Sequence record: OQ689734.1
From: Escherichia phage 4E8
DNA length: 64,000 bases
Strand: one strand, 5' to 3'
Shown in pieces: positions 40,546 to 50,808 of the stretch. Each line of letters starts with the position of its first letter. Positions within the stretch are counted from its first letter, which is position 1. A program made the translations under genes and the position numbers. The notes under the pieces are model-generated. The model was not told the origin of the DNA, did not search any database, and saw only the letters and a program-made list of their open reading frames with translations.

Positions 40546-40752
40546 TTAGTAAAACGATCGTATTTCTTCCCACACATCATCTTGCAAGTTTCTAAAACCC
40601 TGCAAGGTTTGCTTTGTTCTGTGAATAAATTCTTCAGAGTGCTTGTCGGGTGTGAGCATACTGACAAACTTTTCATAGCGATTAATCTTCCACCGCATCT
40701 TCAAGTAGTCAGATTCCAGCTTTCTTAACTTCTGCCTGTCAGTTACTGTCAT
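40546..40752 (-). CDS. hypothetical protein
   Basis: track ORF 40546-40848 overlaps upstream gene by 110 nt; internal Met start used. Confidence 0.35.
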   Translation of the reverse strand: MTVTDRQKLRKLESDYLKMRWKINRYEKFVSMLTPDKHSEEFIHRTKQTLQGFRNLQDDVWEEIRSFY

Positions 40753-41170
40753 CCTTCTCACCTGCCAGATATGCTGTCCAGTCACCAGATTCAACCAGAA
40801 CATCTTGTTCTTCGTCGATGTGATAAATCCACGCTTCCACAGTTTCACCGCTGTCCAATAATACTGGAATCAGTGTACGCTTGTAAAAGGTGTATGGGTT
40901 ATCATTACCACGATGACCTTCCAGACCGTCATACGGACCTTCCAGACCAGCTTGGGTTGTTTCAAAGACTTCTACACGAACAGGCTTACCATTGCTGTCA
41001 TGCTCCAAAGATACACTTGGGAAGTATGCTGTGCAATACTGATACAGGTTACAGTTGTTTACTGTCCACCCTTCACCAATAGACACACCACCTGCACGAG
41101 CATTGATAGCGTGGTTGTGTTGACCTTTACGAAGAGAACCATACGTTGCAACTAATACTTTATCAGACAT
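40739..41170 (-). CDS. gamma-glutamyl cyclotransferase-like (AIG2/GGCT fold) protein
   Basis: N-terminal VATYGSLRKGQHNH (YGSL-x-G motif) and downstream conserved Glu region. Confidence 0.6.
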   Translation of the reverse strand: MSDKVLVATYGSLRKGQHNHAINARAGGVSIGEGWTVNNCNLYQYCTAYFPSVSLEHDSNGKPVRVEVFETTQAGLEGPYDGLEGHRGNDNPYTFYKRTLIPVLLDSGETVEAWIYHIDEEQDVLVESGDWTAYLAGEKDDSN

Positions 41171-41174
41171 TACA

Positions 41175-41372
41175 TTACCTTTTGTTTAAAATTTCTTTTG
41201 TACAAGAAGTCCCGTTACACACGAGAACTGTTTGAGTTATAGAATCGACAACTGTTACATGGCTGCCGCATTGAGTTATGATTTGACCTCTCCCTGAATC
41301 TTTAGAGATGCATTCATCAGCGGCGATCGCTGACACACTGAATAAGGAGAGGAAAAATAGAATCTTTTTCAT
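41175..41372 (-). CDS. small secreted Cys-rich protein
   Basis: signal peptide MKKILFFLSLFSVSAIA; six Cys in mature part. Confidence 0.5.
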   Translation of the reverse strand: MKKILFFLSLFSVSAIAADECISKDSGRGQIITQCGSHVTVVDSITQTVLVCNGTSCTKEILNKR

Positions 41373-41378
41373 GGCTGC

Positions 41379-41795
41379 TTACCAATCATGTTGGAAACCA
41401 GAATATCCAGAGAAGATGATTGATCGGATTGGCTTTTCAGGGAATTCTTCAAAACATCCCTTAATGGCTTTCTTGGTTTCATCAGAAATTGACTCTTTTT
41501 CACCAAACCAGTATTCTTCAAAAATATCAGAGAAGATATAAGTTCGGTATCTTTCCAAGTCATAAAAACCTTCCACTGCACTTGTAACAGCTCTACTAAT
41601 TACACTTGAAGCTACAGGAAATAAGTCACCGTGTTCCAGAAACAAGCACCAACGATCAAAGAGAGGAATCTCTTCATCTTTCAGAAGACTTTCTAACTCT
41701 TCCTTTGCCTCTTTCTTGTGCTTATCAAAGAGGTTTTTGGAATACTCTACATCTAAGATACGACTTTTAAACATATCCAGTTTATTATTAACCAT
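41379..41795 (-). CDS. hypothetical protein
   Basis: 138-aa ORF. Confidence 0.5.
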   Translation of the reverse strand: MVNNKLDMFKSRILDVEYSKNLFDKHKKEAKEELESLLKDEEIPLFDRWCLFLEHGDLFPVASSVISRAVTSAVEGFYDLERYRTYIFSDIFEEYWFGEKESISDETKKAIKGCFEEFPEKPIRSIIFSGYSGFQHDW

Positions 41796-47823: not shown

Positions 47824-47832
47824 AATATCACC

Positions 47833-48639
47833 TTATACAATCTGGAGTTTAGAGGAGAATTTATCCGCTTCTTTAACATCGTTACTGTTGATGATGTTGT
47901 GAAGCTTTTCAATTGGAAGGCGAGAGTGAAGTGACATCAATACTTCCATATCACAGCCTTGAACAACCTTATCAACTTGCTCATAAACAAACTTGCGGGT
48001 TGACTTCTCGCCAATCCAGAAGTTAGAAAGAGAACGATATTCAATACCGTAATCTTTGTAGCGAATGGCAGAAGCCTTTCCGTACAACTCTTTACGACGA
48101 GTGTCTTTATCCATGATCACAGCTGGCAAGGACAGGAAGTAATCACACAACACACCCAACATCATTTGAGTCTGACGACTAATTTCCAGCGTACCAGTGA
48201 CGCCAAGGTGAACATGACCGCCAGCAGTACGCAGACCTTTGTCTGTCGCTACTGGTGAAGGGTTCTTTTGTCCAGTGAAGGCATTGAAATCAGGAGTACA
48301 ACCAAATACAAAGGCTGACGGATGGAAAGATTCCAGCTCTTCTGAAGTGAACACATGAGAGCTAATCCCAAGTGCTGCCTCCATGCCACGTTCATTGAGA
48401 ACTTTGTTAGTCAGATCAATACCGCGCTGAATGTTATCATCAAACGCTTCAAACCCTTTCTGTGGGTTAATATCAAACTCGGCCAGAACGTTATCTTCTT
48501 GAAGACGAACATCAGGAGCCAGATCAATTTTATTATCTTTAGAACAGCCCAGCTTACCAGCCACAGAGGTGATAATACCGGAAGCAGTACGAACAAACAT
48601 TTCAGGGTCAGAGCCAATAAGGAAAGCGCGCTTAGTCAT
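47833..48639 (-). CDS. second GCS-like COOH-NH2 ligase (tentative)
   Basis: RAFLIGSDPEMFV ... AGGHVHLGV; start moved to MTKRAFL to avoid 53-nt overlap. Confidence 0.5.
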   Translation of the reverse strand: MTKRAFLIGSDPEMFVRTASGIITSVAGKLGCSKDNKIDLAPDVRLQEDNVLAEFDINPQKGFEAFDDNIQRGIDLTNKVLNERGMEAALGISSHVFTSEELESFHPSAFVFGCTPDFNAFTGQKNPSPVATDKGLRTAGGHVHLGVTGTLEISRQTQMMLGVLCDYFLSLPAVIMDKDTRRKELYGKASAIRYKDYGIEYRSLSNFWIGEKSTRKFVYEQVDKVVQGCDMEVLMSLHSRLPIEKLHNIINSNDVKEADKFSSKLQIV

Positions 48640-49582
48640 TGTAATACTCCACGAGTTCATCAAAAAGGGAAACAACACGAGCACCAGCTTCTTCTGGTGT
48701 CATTGAGGAAGGTACTGCTTGCATCAGACGTTCGATAAAACTTCGAACAGTAATCCTGTCCATACGCTGATCTAATACTTCTCGCTTGTGACCTGCACAA
48801 GTTGACCAGAGACGTAACCACTCACTCATACTCTCATAATGGTCAGGGTCTTGGTCACGACGACGTGCCATACGACGGAGAACTCCATCATTATGGTTTC
48901 GTACATAACCATCTCGGTTGTCATCAACACCGAATACATTCTGAACCCATACGTTTTCAGAAAATTCATCAGTGGTGCAAATTAATGGCAGAAATGCAAT
49001 TGCACTCATGTCGCCATCAAAATAAGTCGCTGCTGACTCATCGGTTGAGTCTACGTCATTACTATAACACCAGCGACCAAAGAAGTTACGACTTAAACCA
49101 GCTAAGCGTAGAGCTAAACCGATTCGTTGTCGCTTAAGCAACTCTTCCTTGTCTTGTACGCCTTCCTGAAGGAACTCCATTCCATTAAAATCACCATCCA
49201 AATAGCTACGGATGGTCATTAGTCCAGTAAACACCTTGTCTGCTGGATGGTTTCGAAGGTTCACGGCAATGGAGTTCACCGAAGTGACAGAGAACATATC
49301 TTTATAGCAAGACATTGAGTTAAAAATGTCTGTTGCTTCAACTAAAGCTCTTTCGATATCTTTAGCTGGCACGCCATAAAAATTGTGAGGCCAGAAGTTA
49401 ATAACTTCAATTTCTGAAGTTCTATCACGAAGGTTTGTTCGGTTACGACTTTCACCGTTAATGTCTGTAACAGAGTACATGTGCATACAGTTAAAAGTAC
49501 CAAAGCAAGCTCTTCCTTTGAACACTGACTCACCGAAATCCTCTGCCGGTGTTACCGGAGCAATCGATGCGGAGATTGACAT
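48632..49582 (-). CDS. hypothetical protein (cluster member)
   Basis: 316-aa ORF. Confidence 0.5.
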   Translation of the reverse strand: MSISASIAPVTPAEDFGESVFKGRACFGTFNCMHMYSVTDINGESRNRTNLRDRTSEIEVINFWPHNFYGVPAKDIERALVEATDIFNSMSCYKDMFSVTSVNSIAVNLRNHPADKVFTGLMTIRSYLDGDFNGMEFLQEGVQDKEELLKRQRIGLALRLAGLSRNFFGRWCYSNDVDSTDESAATYFDGDMSAIAFLPLICTTDEFSENVWVQNVFGVDDNRDGYVRNHNDGVLRRMARRRDQDPDHYESMSEWLRLWSTCAGHKREVLDQRMDRITVRSFIERLMQAVPSSMTPEEAGARVVSLFDELVEYYND

Positions 49583-49590
49583 ATTCGCCT

Positions 49591-50808
49591 CTATTTATTA
49601 AAGAATAATTTTTCCATAATGGTTTCCCACTCTTCTGAGGGGAGAGTTGAGAACCCGTTTCCGTGAAGCCTGTTTGTCATGCAACTAATAATATTGTACA
49701 TGTTGTAGCTTCGGGTGGATTCTGTTCCATTGTTCCAATTATAACCGAAAACAATTTTATCAAAGGAGGTTTTATCCGTAGTTACTTCTCGGATGAATTC
49801 TACTAACAGAGATTTCTCCGTAATAATCGGACGTTCCCCATCTGGCAGATTGCAATACTGAGGAAGAAGAATTGGCAAGAACATCGAATTATTCACTCGA
49901 CAATCACGAACACCTTCACTGCGATAGATTAGGCTTGAGAAGTCTTCATCACGCAGGTGTCCTTCACCTTCAGTGTATTCACACTGTCGCCACTTGGTCT
50001 GGCGAGGCTCAATCATTGTACTACCAACGCCTACTGTATACAGAGACGCTTGGAAAATACATGAATCGTAATCATTCCCTGTTAAAGCAACTTGCTCGTT
50101 GCCGAACACATCCACTGAAGAGTTAATCAGTCGGCTGAATGCAAGAGAGGCTAAAGGGGACCAACCTTTCTTATACATCTTGTTCAACATTTCATACACA
50201 GCAGATTTTTCATCATCTGTATAGAATGTACGATTCAGCATCAGATAGAACAGAGCGCGATCAGCAGGACAACCATCAGTACAAACACCCATGAATCCTA
50301 CTTCATGCCATACCAGACATGAGTCAGAATCCTTATCCATGAATGCTTCAAAGGCTTCCATTACAGCCCTGTCAGTAACATCAGGACGGTTGTTTTCTTC
50401 TGCCCATGTTTCTACATGAGAAGGAGGACGAGGGTCTCCATTCTCCACCCCTTCGCGGAAATATTGAGTGGTAATAGGCTTTTTATCACCATAACGTTTT
50501 ACACCATAAGCGGGAAGGTGTGTACCAGAGTTCCAGATGTACTTAATTTCGGACATAGGCATCATGTTTTCGAGAACGTTCTCTTCAGCAGTGCCTTGAC
50601 GAACCATCATATTTTCACTCCACACCTTAATGCGGATATTCCAGCCGTAGTTGCTGTCATACGTGTTATAATAATCAGGATCACCATCTTCATCTTCATC
50701 ATAATCACCACCCTGATAGTAACCTGCTTTCAGGAAACCATAACAAGGAGGCCAGACGGTTACAACATCATCTGATTCTTTCCAGCTTTGAAGTGTTACA
50801 GGGAACAT
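49591..50808 (-). CDS. hypothetical protein (cluster member)
   Basis: 405-aa ORF, acidic N-terminal region. Confidence 0.5.
   Translation of the reverse strand: MFPVTLQSWKESDDVVTVWPPCYGFLKAGYYQGGDYDEDEDGDPDYYNTYDSNYGWNIRIKVWSENMMVRQGTAEENVLENMMPMSEIKYIWNSGTHLPAYGVKRYGDKKPITTQYFREGVENGDPRPPSHVETWAEENNRPDVTDRAVMEAFEAFMDKDSDSCLVWHEVGFMGVCTDGCPADRALFYLMLNRTFYTDDEKSAVYEMLNKMYKKGWSPLASLAFSRLINSSVDVFGNEQVALTGNDYDSCIFQASLYTVGVGSTMIEPRQTKWRQCEYTEGEGHLRDEDFSSLIYRSEGVRDCRVNNSMFLPILLPQYCNLPDGERPIITEKSLLVEFIREVTTDKTSFDKIVFGYNWNNGTESTRSYNMYNIISCMTNRLHGNGFSTLPSEEWETIMEKLFFNK

What the first reader, a model, noticed from the sequence alone, without database searches (positions are those of the whole stretch)
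40739..50808. Ten-kb cluster of amide-bond-forming enzymes with uncharacterised partners
One minus-strand block encodes four enzyme types that make or break amide bonds. These are a GGCT/AIG2-like cyclotransferase (40739-41170), an ATP-grasp ligase (42304-43539), a class-II Ntn glutamine amidotransferase fused to a zinc-ribbon-rich domain (43989-45992) and two GCS/glutamine-synthetase-like COOH-NH2 ligases (46100-47200, 47833-48639). Interleaved are at least four proteins with no recognisable motifs (208, 316, 405 and 120 aa). From memory, co-occurrence of GCS-like amidoligases with a GATase-II or an AIG2 protein has been noted computationally in phiEco32-like phages, but I know of no experimentally defined product. 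The enzyme set suggests stepwise synthesis and trimming of a gamma-glutamyl/peptide-like moiety on a small molecule, a virion protein or DNA.
Basis: partly seen in the sequence, partly recalled or inferred. Interest (0 to 1): 0.85.

Follow-up and report, generated by a model that had tools for sequence, protein, structure and literature searches.

The report
Phage gamma-glutamyl amide-ligase gene cassette
This is the amide-ligase gene cassette already noted by computer analysis in phiEco32-like phages: the enzymes are real and the cassette is found only in viruses, but what it makes is still unknown.

Summary
The window is a Suseptimavirus (phiEco32-like) E. coli phage, 99.3% identical to IME267. 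HMM and structure searches confirm a GGACT cyclotransferase, a RimK-type ATP-grasp ligase, a class-II Ntn glutamine amidotransferase, and Amidoligase_2 and COOH-NH2_lig ligases.

It is not new. This is the cassette that later papers attribute to Iyer 2009 and Hardies 2013 and call a "peptidoglycan modification cassette". I found no experimentally defined product.

Comparison of 88 loci adds four points:
- The conserved order is COOH-NH2_lig, 208-aa protein, Amidoligase_2, GATase, ATP-grasp, usually followed by primase/helicase.
- The 208-aa "no motif" protein is a near-universal partner. It is a beta-barrel protein with a signature basic loop.
- GGACT and a Peptidase_C26 gamma-glutamyl hydrolase replace each other (45 versus 38 loci, 2 with both). 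This suggests that removing a gamma-glutamyl group is an obligatory step.
- The cassette is virus-restricted and present in essentially all Gordonclarkvirinae.

The 120-, 405- and 316-aa proteins are clade-specific.

Most likely this is a cytoplasmic pathway that uses transient gamma-glutamylation on a soluble amine or peptide. Peptidoglycan, protein and DNA targets remain open.

The parts
51374..51391 (-). Terminator-like hairpin followed by a T-run, just upstream of the block. Probable boundary of the transcription unit.
   Evidence: A terminator is annotated at the equivalent place in phage SU7.
51179..51346 (-). 55-aa ORF with a hydrophobic N-terminus; first gene of the block. Clade-specific.
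   Evidence: Homologues in 7 of 88 loci. No Pfam hit.
50820..51182 (-). 120-aa protein of unknown function (PHROG 11370). Clade-specific accessory gene.
   Evidence: Found in 10 of 88 loci, always upstream of the 405-aa gene. A 126-aa gene occupies the same place in the distant loci L102/L103, but its homology was not tested.
49591..50808 (-). 405-aa protein of unknown function (PHROG 13063). It has invariant Cys22, His284 and Asp287/289 and so looks enzyme-like, but its fold is unknown. Clade-specific accessory gene.
   Evidence: Unrelated to the ligases by hhalign. Keeps the same position in a relative with 26-28% identity.
48632..49582 (-). 316-aa protein of unknown function (PHROG 13102). 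Clade-specific. Its N-terminal part is weakly related to a family found upstream of the ligase in 27 other loci.
   Evidence: hhalign probability 84%.
47833..48639 (-). COOH-NH2_lig (PF14395) carboxylate-amine ligase. Core gene 1.
   Evidence: Pfam E 3e-8, above the cut-off. PHROG 3815, E 8e-112. Invariant D11, E13, E54, H142, H144, E200, R202 in 34 sequences. The GGHVH motif aligns to QHVHVG of E. coli YbdK. No PDB relative by sequence.
47197..47823 (-). 208-aa partner protein ("h208", PHROG 4877; GTG start). Core gene 2. Non-enzymatic, beta-rich, with SH3/Tudor-like barrels and a disordered signature loop R-x-[PA]-x-R-Q-[WRY]-[KR]-[KR]-G at residues 104-113.
46100..47200 (-). Amidoligase_2 (PF12224) carboxylate-amine ligase. 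Core gene 3.
   Evidence: Pfam E 3.1e-8, above the cut-off. PHROG 7469, E 4e-142. Invariant E31, E33, E35, H95, H97, R130, E186, R188. The GSVEFR motif aligns to GTVEVR of YbdK.
43989..46022 (-). Class-II (Ntn) glutamine amidotransferase or gamma-glutamyl amidohydrolase, 677 aa, with an ATT start. Core gene 4. Layout: Ntn domain 1-240, disordered linker 248-282, helix plus beta-barrel 284-392, then three zinc-ribbon-like elements interleaved with a further beta domain, to residue 677.
43744..43977 (-). DUF7195 small protein (77 aa). Accessory; found in 21 of 88 loci between the GATase and the ATP-grasp gene.
   Evidence: Pfam E 3.3e-19..
43542..43772 (-). 76-aa ORF of unknown function. Accessory; found in 10 of 88 loci.
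42304..43539 (-). RimK-type ATP-grasp ligase (411 aa) with a C-terminal extension of about 110 aa. Core gene 5.
41853..42277 (-). Two small ORFs (80 and 61 aa) of unknown function. Clade-specific.
41379..41795 (-). DUF7020 protein (138 aa). Optional accessory: absent from SU7, but present at the same position in the distant loci L102/L103.
   Evidence: Pfam E 1e-19..
41175..41372 (-). 65-aa ORF with a Sec-type signal peptide and four Cys. Found in only one of the 88 comparison loci; absent from SU7. Probably an inserted moron rather than part of the pathway.
   Evidence: sequence read directly. (found in 1 locus).
40739..41170 (-). GGACT/AIG2-like gamma-glutamyl cyclotransferase (143 aa; YGSL motif at residues 10-13). 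Core gene 6 in this lineage; replaced by Peptidase_C26 in others.
   Evidence: Pfam E 8.9e-16. PHROG 2520, E 4e-41. Displacement analysis.
38720..40510 (-). Primase/helicase. Not part of the pathway, but it is the next recognised gene downstream of the cassette wherever one was found (55 of 88 loci).

Best explanation
The block is the Gordonclarkvirinae version of a virus-only, six-gene amidoligase cassette. It is co-oriented with the replication genes in one minus-strand gene array.

I propose that it works in the infected cell's cytoplasm on a soluble, host-derived amine or peptide. My first choice for that substrate is a diamine, polyamine or diamino-acid-containing peptide. The proposed logic is transient gamma-glutamylation:
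1. The two GS/GCS-type ligases (COOH-NH2_lig and Amidoligase_2) each use ATP to join a glutamate gamma-carboxylate to an amine.
2. The RimK-type ATP-grasp enzyme adds an amino acid, probably L-Glu, to a free carboxylate.
3. The Ntn amidotransferase binds a gamma-glutamyl compound with a free alpha-amino and alpha-carboxyl group. It then either donates the amide nitrogen of glutamine or hydrolyses a gamma-glutamyl amide, as EgtC does.
4. GGACT removes a gamma-glutamyl group as 5-oxoproline and unmasks the product.

The 208-aa barrel protein and the C-terminal barrel and zinc ribbons of the GATase would act as non-catalytic docking or specificity modules that hold the enzymes together.

Shown: the enzyme families, retention of active-site residues, the conserved gene order, the universality of the 208-aa partner, the alternation of GGACT with Peptidase_C26, and the restriction to viruses.
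Inferred: the order of steps, the use of glutamate, the identity of the acceptor, and the formation of a complex.
For: Enzyme families.

The GATase keeps Cys1. The residues that hold the alpha-amino and alpha-carboxyl groups of glutamine are invariant in 106 homologues: R86, N111-G112 and D129. It has no synthase domain.

The order COOH-NH2_lig, h208, Amidoligase_2, GATase, ATP-grasp recurs in 88 loci.

GGACT is present in 45 loci and Peptidase_C26 in 38, with both in 2 and neither in 7; several of those 7 loci are cut off at a contig or fetch-window end. Fisher p = 3.6e-15, with at least 4 switches on the ligase tree. Both enzyme families remove gamma-glutamyl groups from amines. Peptidase_C26 usually lies directly upstream of COOH-NH2_lig, and the GATase directly downstream of Amidoligase_2, so the genes form two ligase/hydrolase pairs.

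From established knowledge, the known pairings of these same families all use gamma-glutamyl as a temporary handle on a small-molecule amine: PuuA/PuuD, EgtA/EgtC and BtrJ/BtrG.

No conserved acceptor residue or tag protein is encoded. The loop Lys of h208 is replaced by Arg in 31 of 75 sequences, its C-termini are not conserved, and no small ORF is universal.

The cassette is under selection. It is present in about all 97 Gordonclarkvirinae records. Directed evolution of a LUZ24-like phage hit the amidoligase and GATase genes in both evolved lines (PMC11450229).
Against: No product, substrate or phenotype has been measured anywhere that I could find.

A universal non-enzymatic beta-barrel partner, and the barrel and zinc-ribbon modules on the GATase, are more typical of systems that recognise macromolecules than of small-molecule pathways.

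The best-known RimK and GS-like relatives RimK and PafA modify proteins.

The GS-like fold of the two ligases rests on Pfam family assignment and motif matches only. Profile searches found no solved relative, and hhalign to YbdK gave 4-8% probability.

The published hypothesis is peptidoglycan, which my data neither support nor exclude.
Confidence: 0.42

Rival explanations
1. Peptidoglycan modification, the published hypothesis. The enzymes would rebuild or amidate murein peptide stems or their cytoplasmic precursors. This would alter the cell envelope after infection, for example to block superinfection.
Against: There are no experimental data. None of the core proteins has a signal peptide or membrane segment on reading their sequences. 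The GATase pocket residues, and GGACT chemistry as known from characterised members, call for an L-gamma-glutamyl group with a free alpha-amine, whereas the murein iso-Glu is D and N-acylated. No Mur-ligase-type enzyme is present. A superinfection barrier built through new murein seems slow for a lytic phage (inference).
Confidence: 0.17
2. Protein modification. The ligases would add glutamyl or gamma-glutamyl groups to a host or phage protein, in the manner of RimK on ribosomal protein S6 or of PafA/Pup. The 208-aa barrel protein would be the targeting adaptor, and GGACT and the GATase the erasers or processors.
For: The nearest solved relatives of the ATP-grasp enzyme are RimK S6-glutamate ligases. 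From established knowledge, the GS-like superfamily includes PafA/Dop, and the defining substrate of GGACT is gamma-glutamyl-epsilon-lysine. A universal non-enzymatic barrel protein with a conserved basic loop, together with the barrel and zinc ribbons on the GATase, looks like macromolecule recognition.
Against: No conserved tag or acceptor is encoded. The h208 loop Lys and Arg interchange, its C-termini vary, and no small ORF is universal. The GATase and GGACT need a free alpha-amino gamma-glutamyl group, which fits single gamma-Glu caps but not peptide chains. No fusion of h208 to another recognisable domain exists.
Confidence: 0.2
3. DNA or nucleotide hypermodification. The cassette would attach an amino-acid or peptide moiety to a base, and this would explain the restriction resistance of Gordonclarkvirinae.
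For: BASEL phenotyping found Gordonclarkvirinae remarkably resistant to restriction-modification systems with no known modification pathway (PMC11990801). The window still holds 12 EcoRI and 18 EcoRV sites. The cassette always lies among replication and nucleotide-metabolism genes. Amidoligase and amidotransferase genes co-occur with thymidine-hypermodification genes in viromes (PMC8989533).
Against: DNA of U17, a LUZ24-like phage with the same cassette, is cut by 11 of 16 restriction enzymes. The nanopore study that includes the UFV-P2 relative Rembedalsseter singles it out only for nicks; its conclusion names modifications in four other phages. I did not confirm the cassette in that genome. 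The window strongly avoids CCWGG (4 versus about 95 expected), GATC, BamHI and PstI sites, as expected for unprotected DNA. None of the block's ORFs matched a kinase, a hydroxymethylase or any DNA-binding enzyme family in Pfam. The BASEL authors point to the dCTP deaminase and nucleotidyltransferase instead.
Confidence: 0.07
4. Auxiliary metabolic genes for nitrogen, glutamate or glutathione metabolism. The enzymes would simply boost or recycle host amino-acid pools: glutathione breakdown by the cyclotransferase, and glutamine use by the GATase.
For: An eLife paper on the LUZ24-like "Phage-ZRK32" claims that these genes help nitrogen assimilation, based on growth stimulation after adding phage (PMC10945688). 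Other papers call them "host material recycling genes".
Against: That evidence is indirect, with no gene-level test. A six-gene, strictly collinear, virus-restricted set does not look like borrowed host metabolism: only 13 hits, all phage-like or contaminant contigs, in genomes of 100,044 species, and it includes a dedicated non-enzymatic partner. None of the genes matches a host housekeeping equivalog at NCBIfam cut-offs.
Confidence: 0.05

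Closest known systems
phiEco32/LUZ24-type phage amidoligase cassette ("peptidoglycan modification cassette"; Iyer et al. 2009, Hardies et al. 2013; Pfam PF14395 "Phage phiEco32-like COOH.NH2 ligase-type 2")
   Same: It is the same system. Gene content and order are identical to phiEco32 gp77-gp89 and collinear with LUZ24 gp16-gp22. 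The window is 99.3% identical to phage IME267.
   Different: Nothing differs in kind. This lineage adds the clade-specific 120/405/316-aa genes, DUF7195, DUF7020 and extra zinc ribbons on the GATase. The function assigned in the literature is a prediction only.
E. coli putrescine utilisation pathway: PuuA (GS-like gamma-glutamylputrescine synthetase) with PuuD (Peptidase_C26 gamma-glutamyl hydrolase)
   Same: It pairs a GS-superfamily ligase with a Peptidase_C26 hydrolase. That is the pairing found in 38 of the 88 cassette loci. Gamma-glutamyl serves as a temporary handle on an amine.
   Different: The phage ligases are very distant families. This window has GGACT in place of C26. There are no oxidase or dehydrogenase steps. 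The cassette has two further ligases and an Ntn amidotransferase.
Mycobacterial ergothioneine pathway: EgtA (gamma-glutamylcysteine ligase) with EgtC (class-II GATase-fold gamma-glutamyl amidohydrolase)
   Same: It pairs a GCS-type ligase with a stand-alone Ntn GATase-fold enzyme that removes gamma-glutamyl. EgtC is a structural match of the phage GATase domain (Foldseek 1e-9), with a weak NCBIfam hit.
   Different: There are no EgtB/D/E homologues. The phage enzyme carries a large C-terminal barrel and zinc-ribbon region.
Butirosin biosynthesis: BtrJ (ATP-grasp gamma-glutamyl ligase) with BtrG (GGCT-type cyclotransferase)
   Same: An ATP-grasp ligase and an AIG2/GGCT-fold enzyme install and then remove a gamma-glutamyl protecting group.
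   Different: BtrJ works on an acyl-carrier-protein-bound amine. No carrier protein or aminoglycoside genes are present here. This resemblance comes from established knowledge and was not tested by sequence.
RimK (ribosomal protein S6 L-glutamate ligase) and the related MptN/CofF alpha-L-glutamate ligases
   Same: They are the nearest solved and curated relatives of the phage ATP-grasp enzyme. The Mg/ATP ligands D230, E242 and N244 are invariant.
   Different: Scores are far below the equivalog cut-offs (36.7 bits against 350). The phage protein has a C-terminal extension of about 110 aa. The annotation "S6 glutaminyl transferase" is unproven.

Membership tests
Class-II (Ntn) glutamine amidotransferase | Cys as the first residue after the initiator Met (the N-terminal nucleophile) | tested here: met
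   Met only with an ATT start at 46022: the upstream frame reads ATT-TGT-GGT-ATC, giving (M)CGIV. phiEco32 and SU7 share ATT-TGT; six other lineages have ATG-TGT. The consensus of 106 homologues starts MCGIV.
Class-II (Ntn) glutamine amidotransferase | Glutamine-binding residues (the equivalents of Arg73, Asn98-Gly99 and Asp123 in GlmS) and the Ntn fold | tested here: met
   R86, N111, G112 and D129 are invariant in alignment A3. Foldseek matches the GlmS glutaminase domain at 2.2e-12, with PurF, AsnB and EgtC also matched.
Class-II (Ntn) glutamine amidotransferase | A fused acceptor or synthase domain (SIS, PRTase or AsnB-type), as in GlmS, PurF and AsnB | tested here: not met
   There is no Pfam domain beyond residue 240 apart from a weak LIM-like hit. 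The model shows a beta-barrel plus zinc ribbons. The GenBank name "fructose-6-phosphate aminotransferase" is therefore not justified.
ATP-grasp ligases, RimK branch | Profile similarity to solved ATP-grasp enzymes, and conserved Mg/ATP ligands | tested here: met
   The family profile hits RimK and alpha-L-glutamate ligases at 8e-13 to 7e-12, and Ddl at 4e-7. K85, R122, E158, R160, K174, D230, E242 and N244 are invariant.
ATP-grasp ligases, RimK branch | Glutamylation of the C-terminus of ribosomal protein S6 | not testable with these tools
   It scores far below the RimK equivalog cut-off (22 bits against 331). An enzyme assay is needed.
GGACT/AIG2-like gamma-glutamyl cyclotransferase (PF06094) | HMM match above the curated cut-off, and the YGSL motif | tested here: met
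   59 bits against a cut-off of 22.8. YGSL is at residues 10-13, read. The catalytic Glu was not mapped.
Amidoligase_2 (PF12224), GS/GCS-like carboxylate-amine ligases | HMM match above the cut-off, and acidic/His/Arg metal- and ATP-binding motifs | tested here: met
   34.2 bits against a cut-off of 22. E31, E33, E35, H95, H97, E186 and R188 are invariant. GSVEFR aligns to GTVEVR of YbdK.
COOH-NH2_lig (PF14395), GS/GCS-like carboxylate-amine ligases | HMM match above the cut-off, and conserved motifs | tested here: met
   33.7 bits against a cut-off of 25. D11, E13, E54, H142, H144, E200 and R202 are invariant. GGHVH aligns to QHVHVG of YbdK.
GS/GCS-like fold (both ligases) | Glutamine-synthetase-type catalytic fold, shown by structure | tested here: inconclusive
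   Profile searches of the PDB found nothing. hhalign to YbdK gave 4-8% probability, on the motifs only.
phiEco32-type phage amidoligase cassette | Collinear COOH-NH2_lig, Amidoligase_2, GAT-II, ATP-grasp and AIG2 genes next to the replication genes of a lytic phage | tested here: met
phiEco32-type phage amidoligase cassette | Peptidoglycan as the substrate (the name used in the literature) | not testable with these tools
   It is a prediction only.
Pupylation-like or LysW-like tagging and carrier systems | A small tag or carrier protein with a conserved C-terminal Gln/Glu, or a conserved acceptor Lys | tested here: not met
   No small ORF is universal: the GATase and ATP-grasp genes abut in 44 of 70 loci. 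h208 C-termini end in varied hydrophobic residues. The loop position is K in 39 and R in 31 of 75 sequences.
Phage thymidine-hypermodification clusters (5-HMUDK / aGPT-Pplase type) | A 5-hmdU kinase, a pyrophosphorylase-type transferase and a dUMP hydroxymethylase in the cluster | tested here: not met
   No such Pfam family is found in any of the block's ORFs. The neighbouring genes in SU7 are annotated ThyX and dCTP deaminase. Limit: only Pfam-level detection was used.

The most novel reading that the evidence does not exclude
The cassette is a virus-only system that modifies a macromolecule. In this reading, the universal 208-aa barrel protein, through its R-Q-W-K-K-G-type loop, guides three ligases and two gamma-glutamyl-processing enzymes to a protein or nucleic-acid target in the replicating phage or the host. 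This would be a new kind of enzymatic glutamyl or peptidyl mark. In Gordonclarkvirinae it could underlie their unexplained resistance to restriction-modification systems.
Probability: 0.2. Interest if true: 0.85.

Novelty: already known. Interest (0 to 1): 0.5.

Why it matters
The cassette is one of the most widespread phage enzyme sets with no known product. The signature ligase is encoded on at least 396 IMG/VR contigs and in about 310 sequenced phage isolates. It is present in essentially every Gordonclarkvirinae genome and is almost absent from cellular genomes.

Its phages include therapy candidates against E. coli and Pseudomonas aeruginosa. Whatever it makes is likely to be new chemistry at the phage-host interface, whether that is a metabolite, a murein change or a macromolecular mark.

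The comparative results here narrow the experiments:
- The minimal unit is five or six genes.
- The 208-aa partner must be included in any reconstitution.
- Gamma-glutamyl removal is an obligatory step, so 5-oxoproline or glutamate release can serve as a read-out.
- The GATase must be cloned from its ATT start to keep its catalytic Cys.

BASEL phages Bas86-88 carry the same block at 88.6-98% identity (Bas86 and Bas87 about 98%) and infect an engineered E. coli K-12, so the genetics are now practical.

Tried and rejected
Searches for relatives of the unknown proteins:
- PDB sequence searches for the 405-, 316- and 208-aa proteins found nothing.
- PDB profile searches for h208, hyp405, Amidoligase_2 and COOH-NH2_lig found nothing.
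- The BFVD search returned only uncharacterised members of its own family.
- The afdb50 library was unavailable.
- hhalign of hyp405 against either ligase was negative.
- hhalign between the two ligases, or between each and YbdK, aligned only short motifs.

Hypotheses tested and rejected:
- h208 as a Lys or C-terminal-Glu acceptor.
- A small carrier protein between the GATase and the ATP-grasp gene.
- Fusions of h208 to enzymes.
- Cellular homologues whose gene context might reveal the target: only 13 phage-like or contaminant contigs were found.
- Total avoidance of EcoRI and EcoRV sites as the explanation for restriction resistance: the sites are present.

Literature:
- The primary papers (Iyer 2009, Hardies 2013, Savalia 2008) are not held, so their content is cited second-hand.
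- Two searches for restriction-digest data on Kuravirus were uninformative.
- The Durham-collection DNA-modification paper has no Kuravirus.

Full report
WHAT THE WINDOW IS. The 10-kb block is 99.3% identical over its full length to Escherichia phage IME267, and 94-100% covered at 95-99% identity in other Suseptimavirus genomes. These include SU7 and the BASEL phages Bas86 and Bas87. Kuravirus phages such as phiEco32 match at lower identity. The window is therefore a Gordonclarkvirinae (phiEco32-like) lytic podophage. All genes from about 51346 down to the primase/helicase at 38720-40510 lie on the minus strand. A terminator-like hairpin sits just upstream at 51391-51374. The SU7 record annotates the same layout.

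CHECK OF THE OBSERVATION. The enzyme calls hold.
- GGACT scores E 8.9e-16, GATase_6 1.5e-14, Amidoligase_2 3.1e-8 and COOH-NH2_lig 3e-8. All are above Pfam's curated cut-offs.
- The ATP-grasp call is weak in Pfam (RimK 7e-4, below the cut-off). A 30-sequence profile of the family hits solved RimK and alpha-L-glutamate ligases at 8e-13 to 7e-12. NCBIfam MptN scores 2.4e-9. The Mg/ATP ligands are invariant.
- An AlphaFold model of the GATase, built from 106 sequences (pLDDT 87), matches the GlmS glutaminase domain at 2e-12. It also matches PurF, AsnB and the gamma-glutamyl hydrolase EgtC.
- Beyond residue 240 the model has a disordered linker, a helix plus beta-barrel, and three zinc-ribbon-like elements. 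It has no SIS, PRTase or AsnB domain. The database name "fructose-6-phosphate aminotransferase" is unfounded, and the block is not a routine purF/asnB/glmS operon.
- The 208-, 316-, 405- and 120-aa proteins have no Pfam, NCBIfam or PDB match.

A CORRECTION TO THE COORDINATES. The ORF from ATG 45992 begins MTSADLDIF and lacks the N-terminal Cys that defines Ntn amidotransferases. In frame, just upstream, the DNA reads TAG AAA ATT TGT GGT ATC GTA, which encodes (M)CGIV, and a GGTGGA Shine-Dalgarno-like element lies 7 nt before the ATT. SU7 and phiEco32 share ATT-TGT. In phiEco32 the downstream ATG is absent and the GenBank CDS already starts at the ATT. Six other lineages have ATG-TGT. The consensus of 106 homologues begins MCGIV. 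The gene is therefore 43989-46022. It uses a rare ATT start, and the enzyme is probably catalytically competent.

IT IS A KNOWN CASSETTE. Pfam PF14395 is named "Phage phiEco32-like COOH.NH2 ligase-type 2". Papers on Pseudoalteromonas, Pseudomonas, OM43 and Clostridium phages describe the set as a "peptidoglycan modification cassette", proposed to block superinfection. They list its members as a gamma-glutamyl cyclotransferase, an ATP-grasp enzyme, an amidotransferase, an amidoligase and a COOH-NH2 ligase, and they cite Iyer et al. 2009 and Hardies et al. 2013. The named hosts of the cassette include phiEco32, 7-11, LUZ24, PaP3, tf, RIO-1 and CW02. The gene table of phage UFV-P2 shows the same order ending at the primase/helicase. 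Six searches of the held literature on the cassette and its phages found no experimentally defined product. The primary papers are not held, so I cite them second-hand. The nearest thing to an experiment is indirect:
- An eLife paper infers a nitrogen-metabolism role from growth stimulation by a LUZ24-like "Phage-ZRK32".
- Directed evolution of a LUZ24-like phage produced missense changes in the amidoligase and GATase genes in both evolved lines.

WHAT COMPARISON ADDS. I used an alignment of the COOH-NH2 ligase to fetch related loci. 396 IMG/VR contigs encode a relative, and I kept 80. I added 8 loci from sequenced phages. Iterative HMM searches over all ORFs of these 88 loci gave the following counts:
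- COOH-NH2_lig: 88 loci
- Amidoligase_2: 88
- GATase: 87
- ATP-grasp: 82
- 208-aa protein: 80
- GGACT: 45
- primase/helicase: 55
- 316-, 405- and 120-aa proteins: 10 each

The order COOH-NH2_lig, 208-aa protein, Amidoligase_2, GATase, ATP-grasp, then optionally GGACT, then primase/helicase, is nearly invariant. In 6 of the 8 loci where the HMM missed the 208-aa family, a single unassigned ORF of about 200-240 aa still lies between the two ligases, and the sequences show a related loop motif; one locus (L088) has no such ORF and one (L059) is rearranged.

The core is therefore five universal genes plus a gamma-glutamyl-removing enzyme. The 120/405/316-aa trio, DUF7195 and DUF7020 are accessories of the Gordonclarkvirinae-related clade. 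They keep their positions even in a relative with only 26-28% identity.

NON-ORTHOLOGOUS DISPLACEMENT. A family found upstream of the ligase in 38 loci is Peptidase_C26, the gamma-glutamyl hydrolase family of PuuD (Pfam E 6e-23). GGACT and C26 are almost mutually exclusive: 45 and 38 loci, with both in 2 and neither in 7. Several of those 7 loci are cut off at a contig or fetch-window end. Fisher p is 3.6e-15, and there are at least four switches on a neighbour-joining tree of the ligase. The pattern is largely clade-structured, so it reflects a few events rather than 80 independent ones. Both enzymes remove a gamma-glutamyl group from an amine, so this step appears obligatory. C26 usually lies directly upstream of COOH-NH2_lig, and the GATase directly downstream of Amidoligase_2. 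The genes thus form two ligase/hydrolase pairs.

DISTRIBUTION. A scan of one genome for each of 100,044 bacterial and archaeal species found only 13 loci. All are phage-sized MAG contigs or tiny contaminant scaffolds. In the isolate-phage collection the ligase occurs in 309 records, all from Gram-negative genera among those named. Primase/helicase at 60% identity or more marks 97 Gordonclarkvirinae records. The ligase at 60% or more is also in 97, and the GATase in 96. The cassette is effectively core to the subfamily. The helicase family as a whole occurs in 3,045 records, so the cassette is not merely a passenger of that helicase.

HOW IT MOST LIKELY WORKS. From established knowledge, the well-studied GS/GCS-superfamily ligases, namely GS, GCS, PuuA and PafA, activate a glutamate gamma-carboxylate. 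RimK-type ATP-grasp enzymes add L-Glu to a terminal carboxylate. The phage GATase keeps the residues that hold the free alpha-amino and alpha-carboxyl groups of glutamine or of a gamma-glutamyl amide. GGACT and C26 both release an amine from a gamma-glutamyl amide. Three known pairings of these same families use gamma-glutamyl as a temporary handle on a small-molecule amine: PuuA/PuuD, EgtA/EgtC and BtrJ/BtrG. I therefore favour, at about 0.42, a cytoplasmic pathway that gamma-glutamylates a soluble host amine or peptide, extends or amidates it, and then unmasks it. The 208-aa protein and the GATase C-terminal modules would organise the enzymes. The enzyme identities, residue conservation, gene order and displacement are shown. 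The step order, the use of glutamate, the acceptor and the complex are inferred.

RIVALS.
- Peptidoglycan (0.17). This is the literature's guess. It fits the Gram-negative host range and the SH3-like partner. There are no data, though, and the gamma-glutamyl-processing enzymes need an L-Glu with a free alpha-amine, unlike the D-iso-Glu of murein.
- Protein modification (0.20). It fits the RimK and PafA precedents and the adaptor-like modules. No conserved tag or acceptor is encoded.
- DNA hypermodification (0.07). It is attractive because Gordonclarkvirinae resist restriction-modification systems with no known modification pathway, and the window still has 12 EcoRI and 18 EcoRV sites. Against it, DNA of a LUZ24-like phage that carries the cassette is cut by 11 of 16 enzymes. 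The nanopore study that includes the UFV-P2 relative Rembedalsseter singles that phage out only for nicks; its conclusion names modifications in four other phages, and I did not confirm the cassette in that genome. The window also strongly avoids CCWGG, GATC, BamHI and PstI sites.
- Bulk nitrogen or glutathione metabolism (0.05). It does not fit a virus-restricted, collinear six-gene set with a dedicated partner protein.

VERDICT. The feature is already known as a predicted system whose product is unknown. Interest is moderate (0.5). A specialist would not be surprised by its existence. It is nevertheless a widespread, virus-only enzyme set that has stayed unexplained since it was first described in 2009, and it can now be tested in E. 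coli K-12 with the BASEL phages.

Noticed in passing
window 46020-46022 (minus strand): The GATase gene starts at a rare ATT codon, and GGTGGA lies 7 nt upstream. This start is conserved in Suseptimavirus and Kuravirus, while other lineages use ATG.
   Followed up: yes
window, whole 64 kb: There is strong avoidance of some sites: CCWGG 4 versus about 95 expected per strand, GGATCC 0 versus about 11, CTGCAG 1 versus about 18, and GATC 131 versus about 291. EcoRI (12), EcoRV (18), EcoKI (5) and EcoP1 (103) sites are not eliminated. Restriction resistance in this subfamily is therefore not explained by site loss for the enzymes tested in BASEL.
   Followed up: partly
window 36772-38190 (minus strand): A 472-aa protein is annotated "nucleotidyltransferase" in SU7, next to a dCTP deaminase. 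It has no Pfam or NCBIfam hit and occurs in only 8 of 88 loci. The BASEL authors suggest this pair as a possible DNA-modification route.
   Followed up: partly
window 41175-41795 (minus strand): Relative to SU7, this phage carries an extra segment between the ATP-grasp gene and GGACT. It encodes a DUF7020 protein and a 65-aa protein with a Sec signal peptide and four Cys. DUF7020 recurs at the same position in the distant loci L102/L103. Conversely, SU7 has an HNH endonuclease between COOH-NH2_lig and the 316-aa gene that is absent here.
   Followed up: partly
L102 and L103, positions about 400-9300: Distant relatives of 31-94 kb that carry the same extended cassette encode PRPP synthetase, NAPRTase, TerC, TerD and a vWA-TerF-like protein just upstream of it.
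   Followed up: no
L008 (OP650935.1, "Poriferisphaera phage ZRK32"): This partial genome is reported as a chronic phage of a deep-sea Planctomycete. Across the cassette and primase/helicase it is collinear with LUZ24-like Pseudomonas phages, and the match strengths are similar. The record is flagged UNVERIFIED_ORG, so the host assignment deserves caution.
   Followed up: partly
window 49591-50808 (minus strand): The 405-aa protein has an invariant Cys22 (in PPCYGF) and an invariant His284, Arg286, Asp287 and Asp289 (in GHxRDED) across 41 homologues. This is compatible with a Cys-His-Asp hydrolase, but no fold assignment was possible.
   Followed up: partly
window 54415-54491 (minus strand): A tRNA-Arg (anticodon TCT) gene lies upstream of the block, as in SU7.
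   Followed up: no
L007 (MT135025.1, Vibrio phage V07): A 349-kb record classified as Schizotequatrovirus and flagged UNVERIFIED_ORG carries a cassette close to that of the 50-kb phage Phriendly. This may be a chimeric assembly or a horizontal transfer.
   Followed up: no
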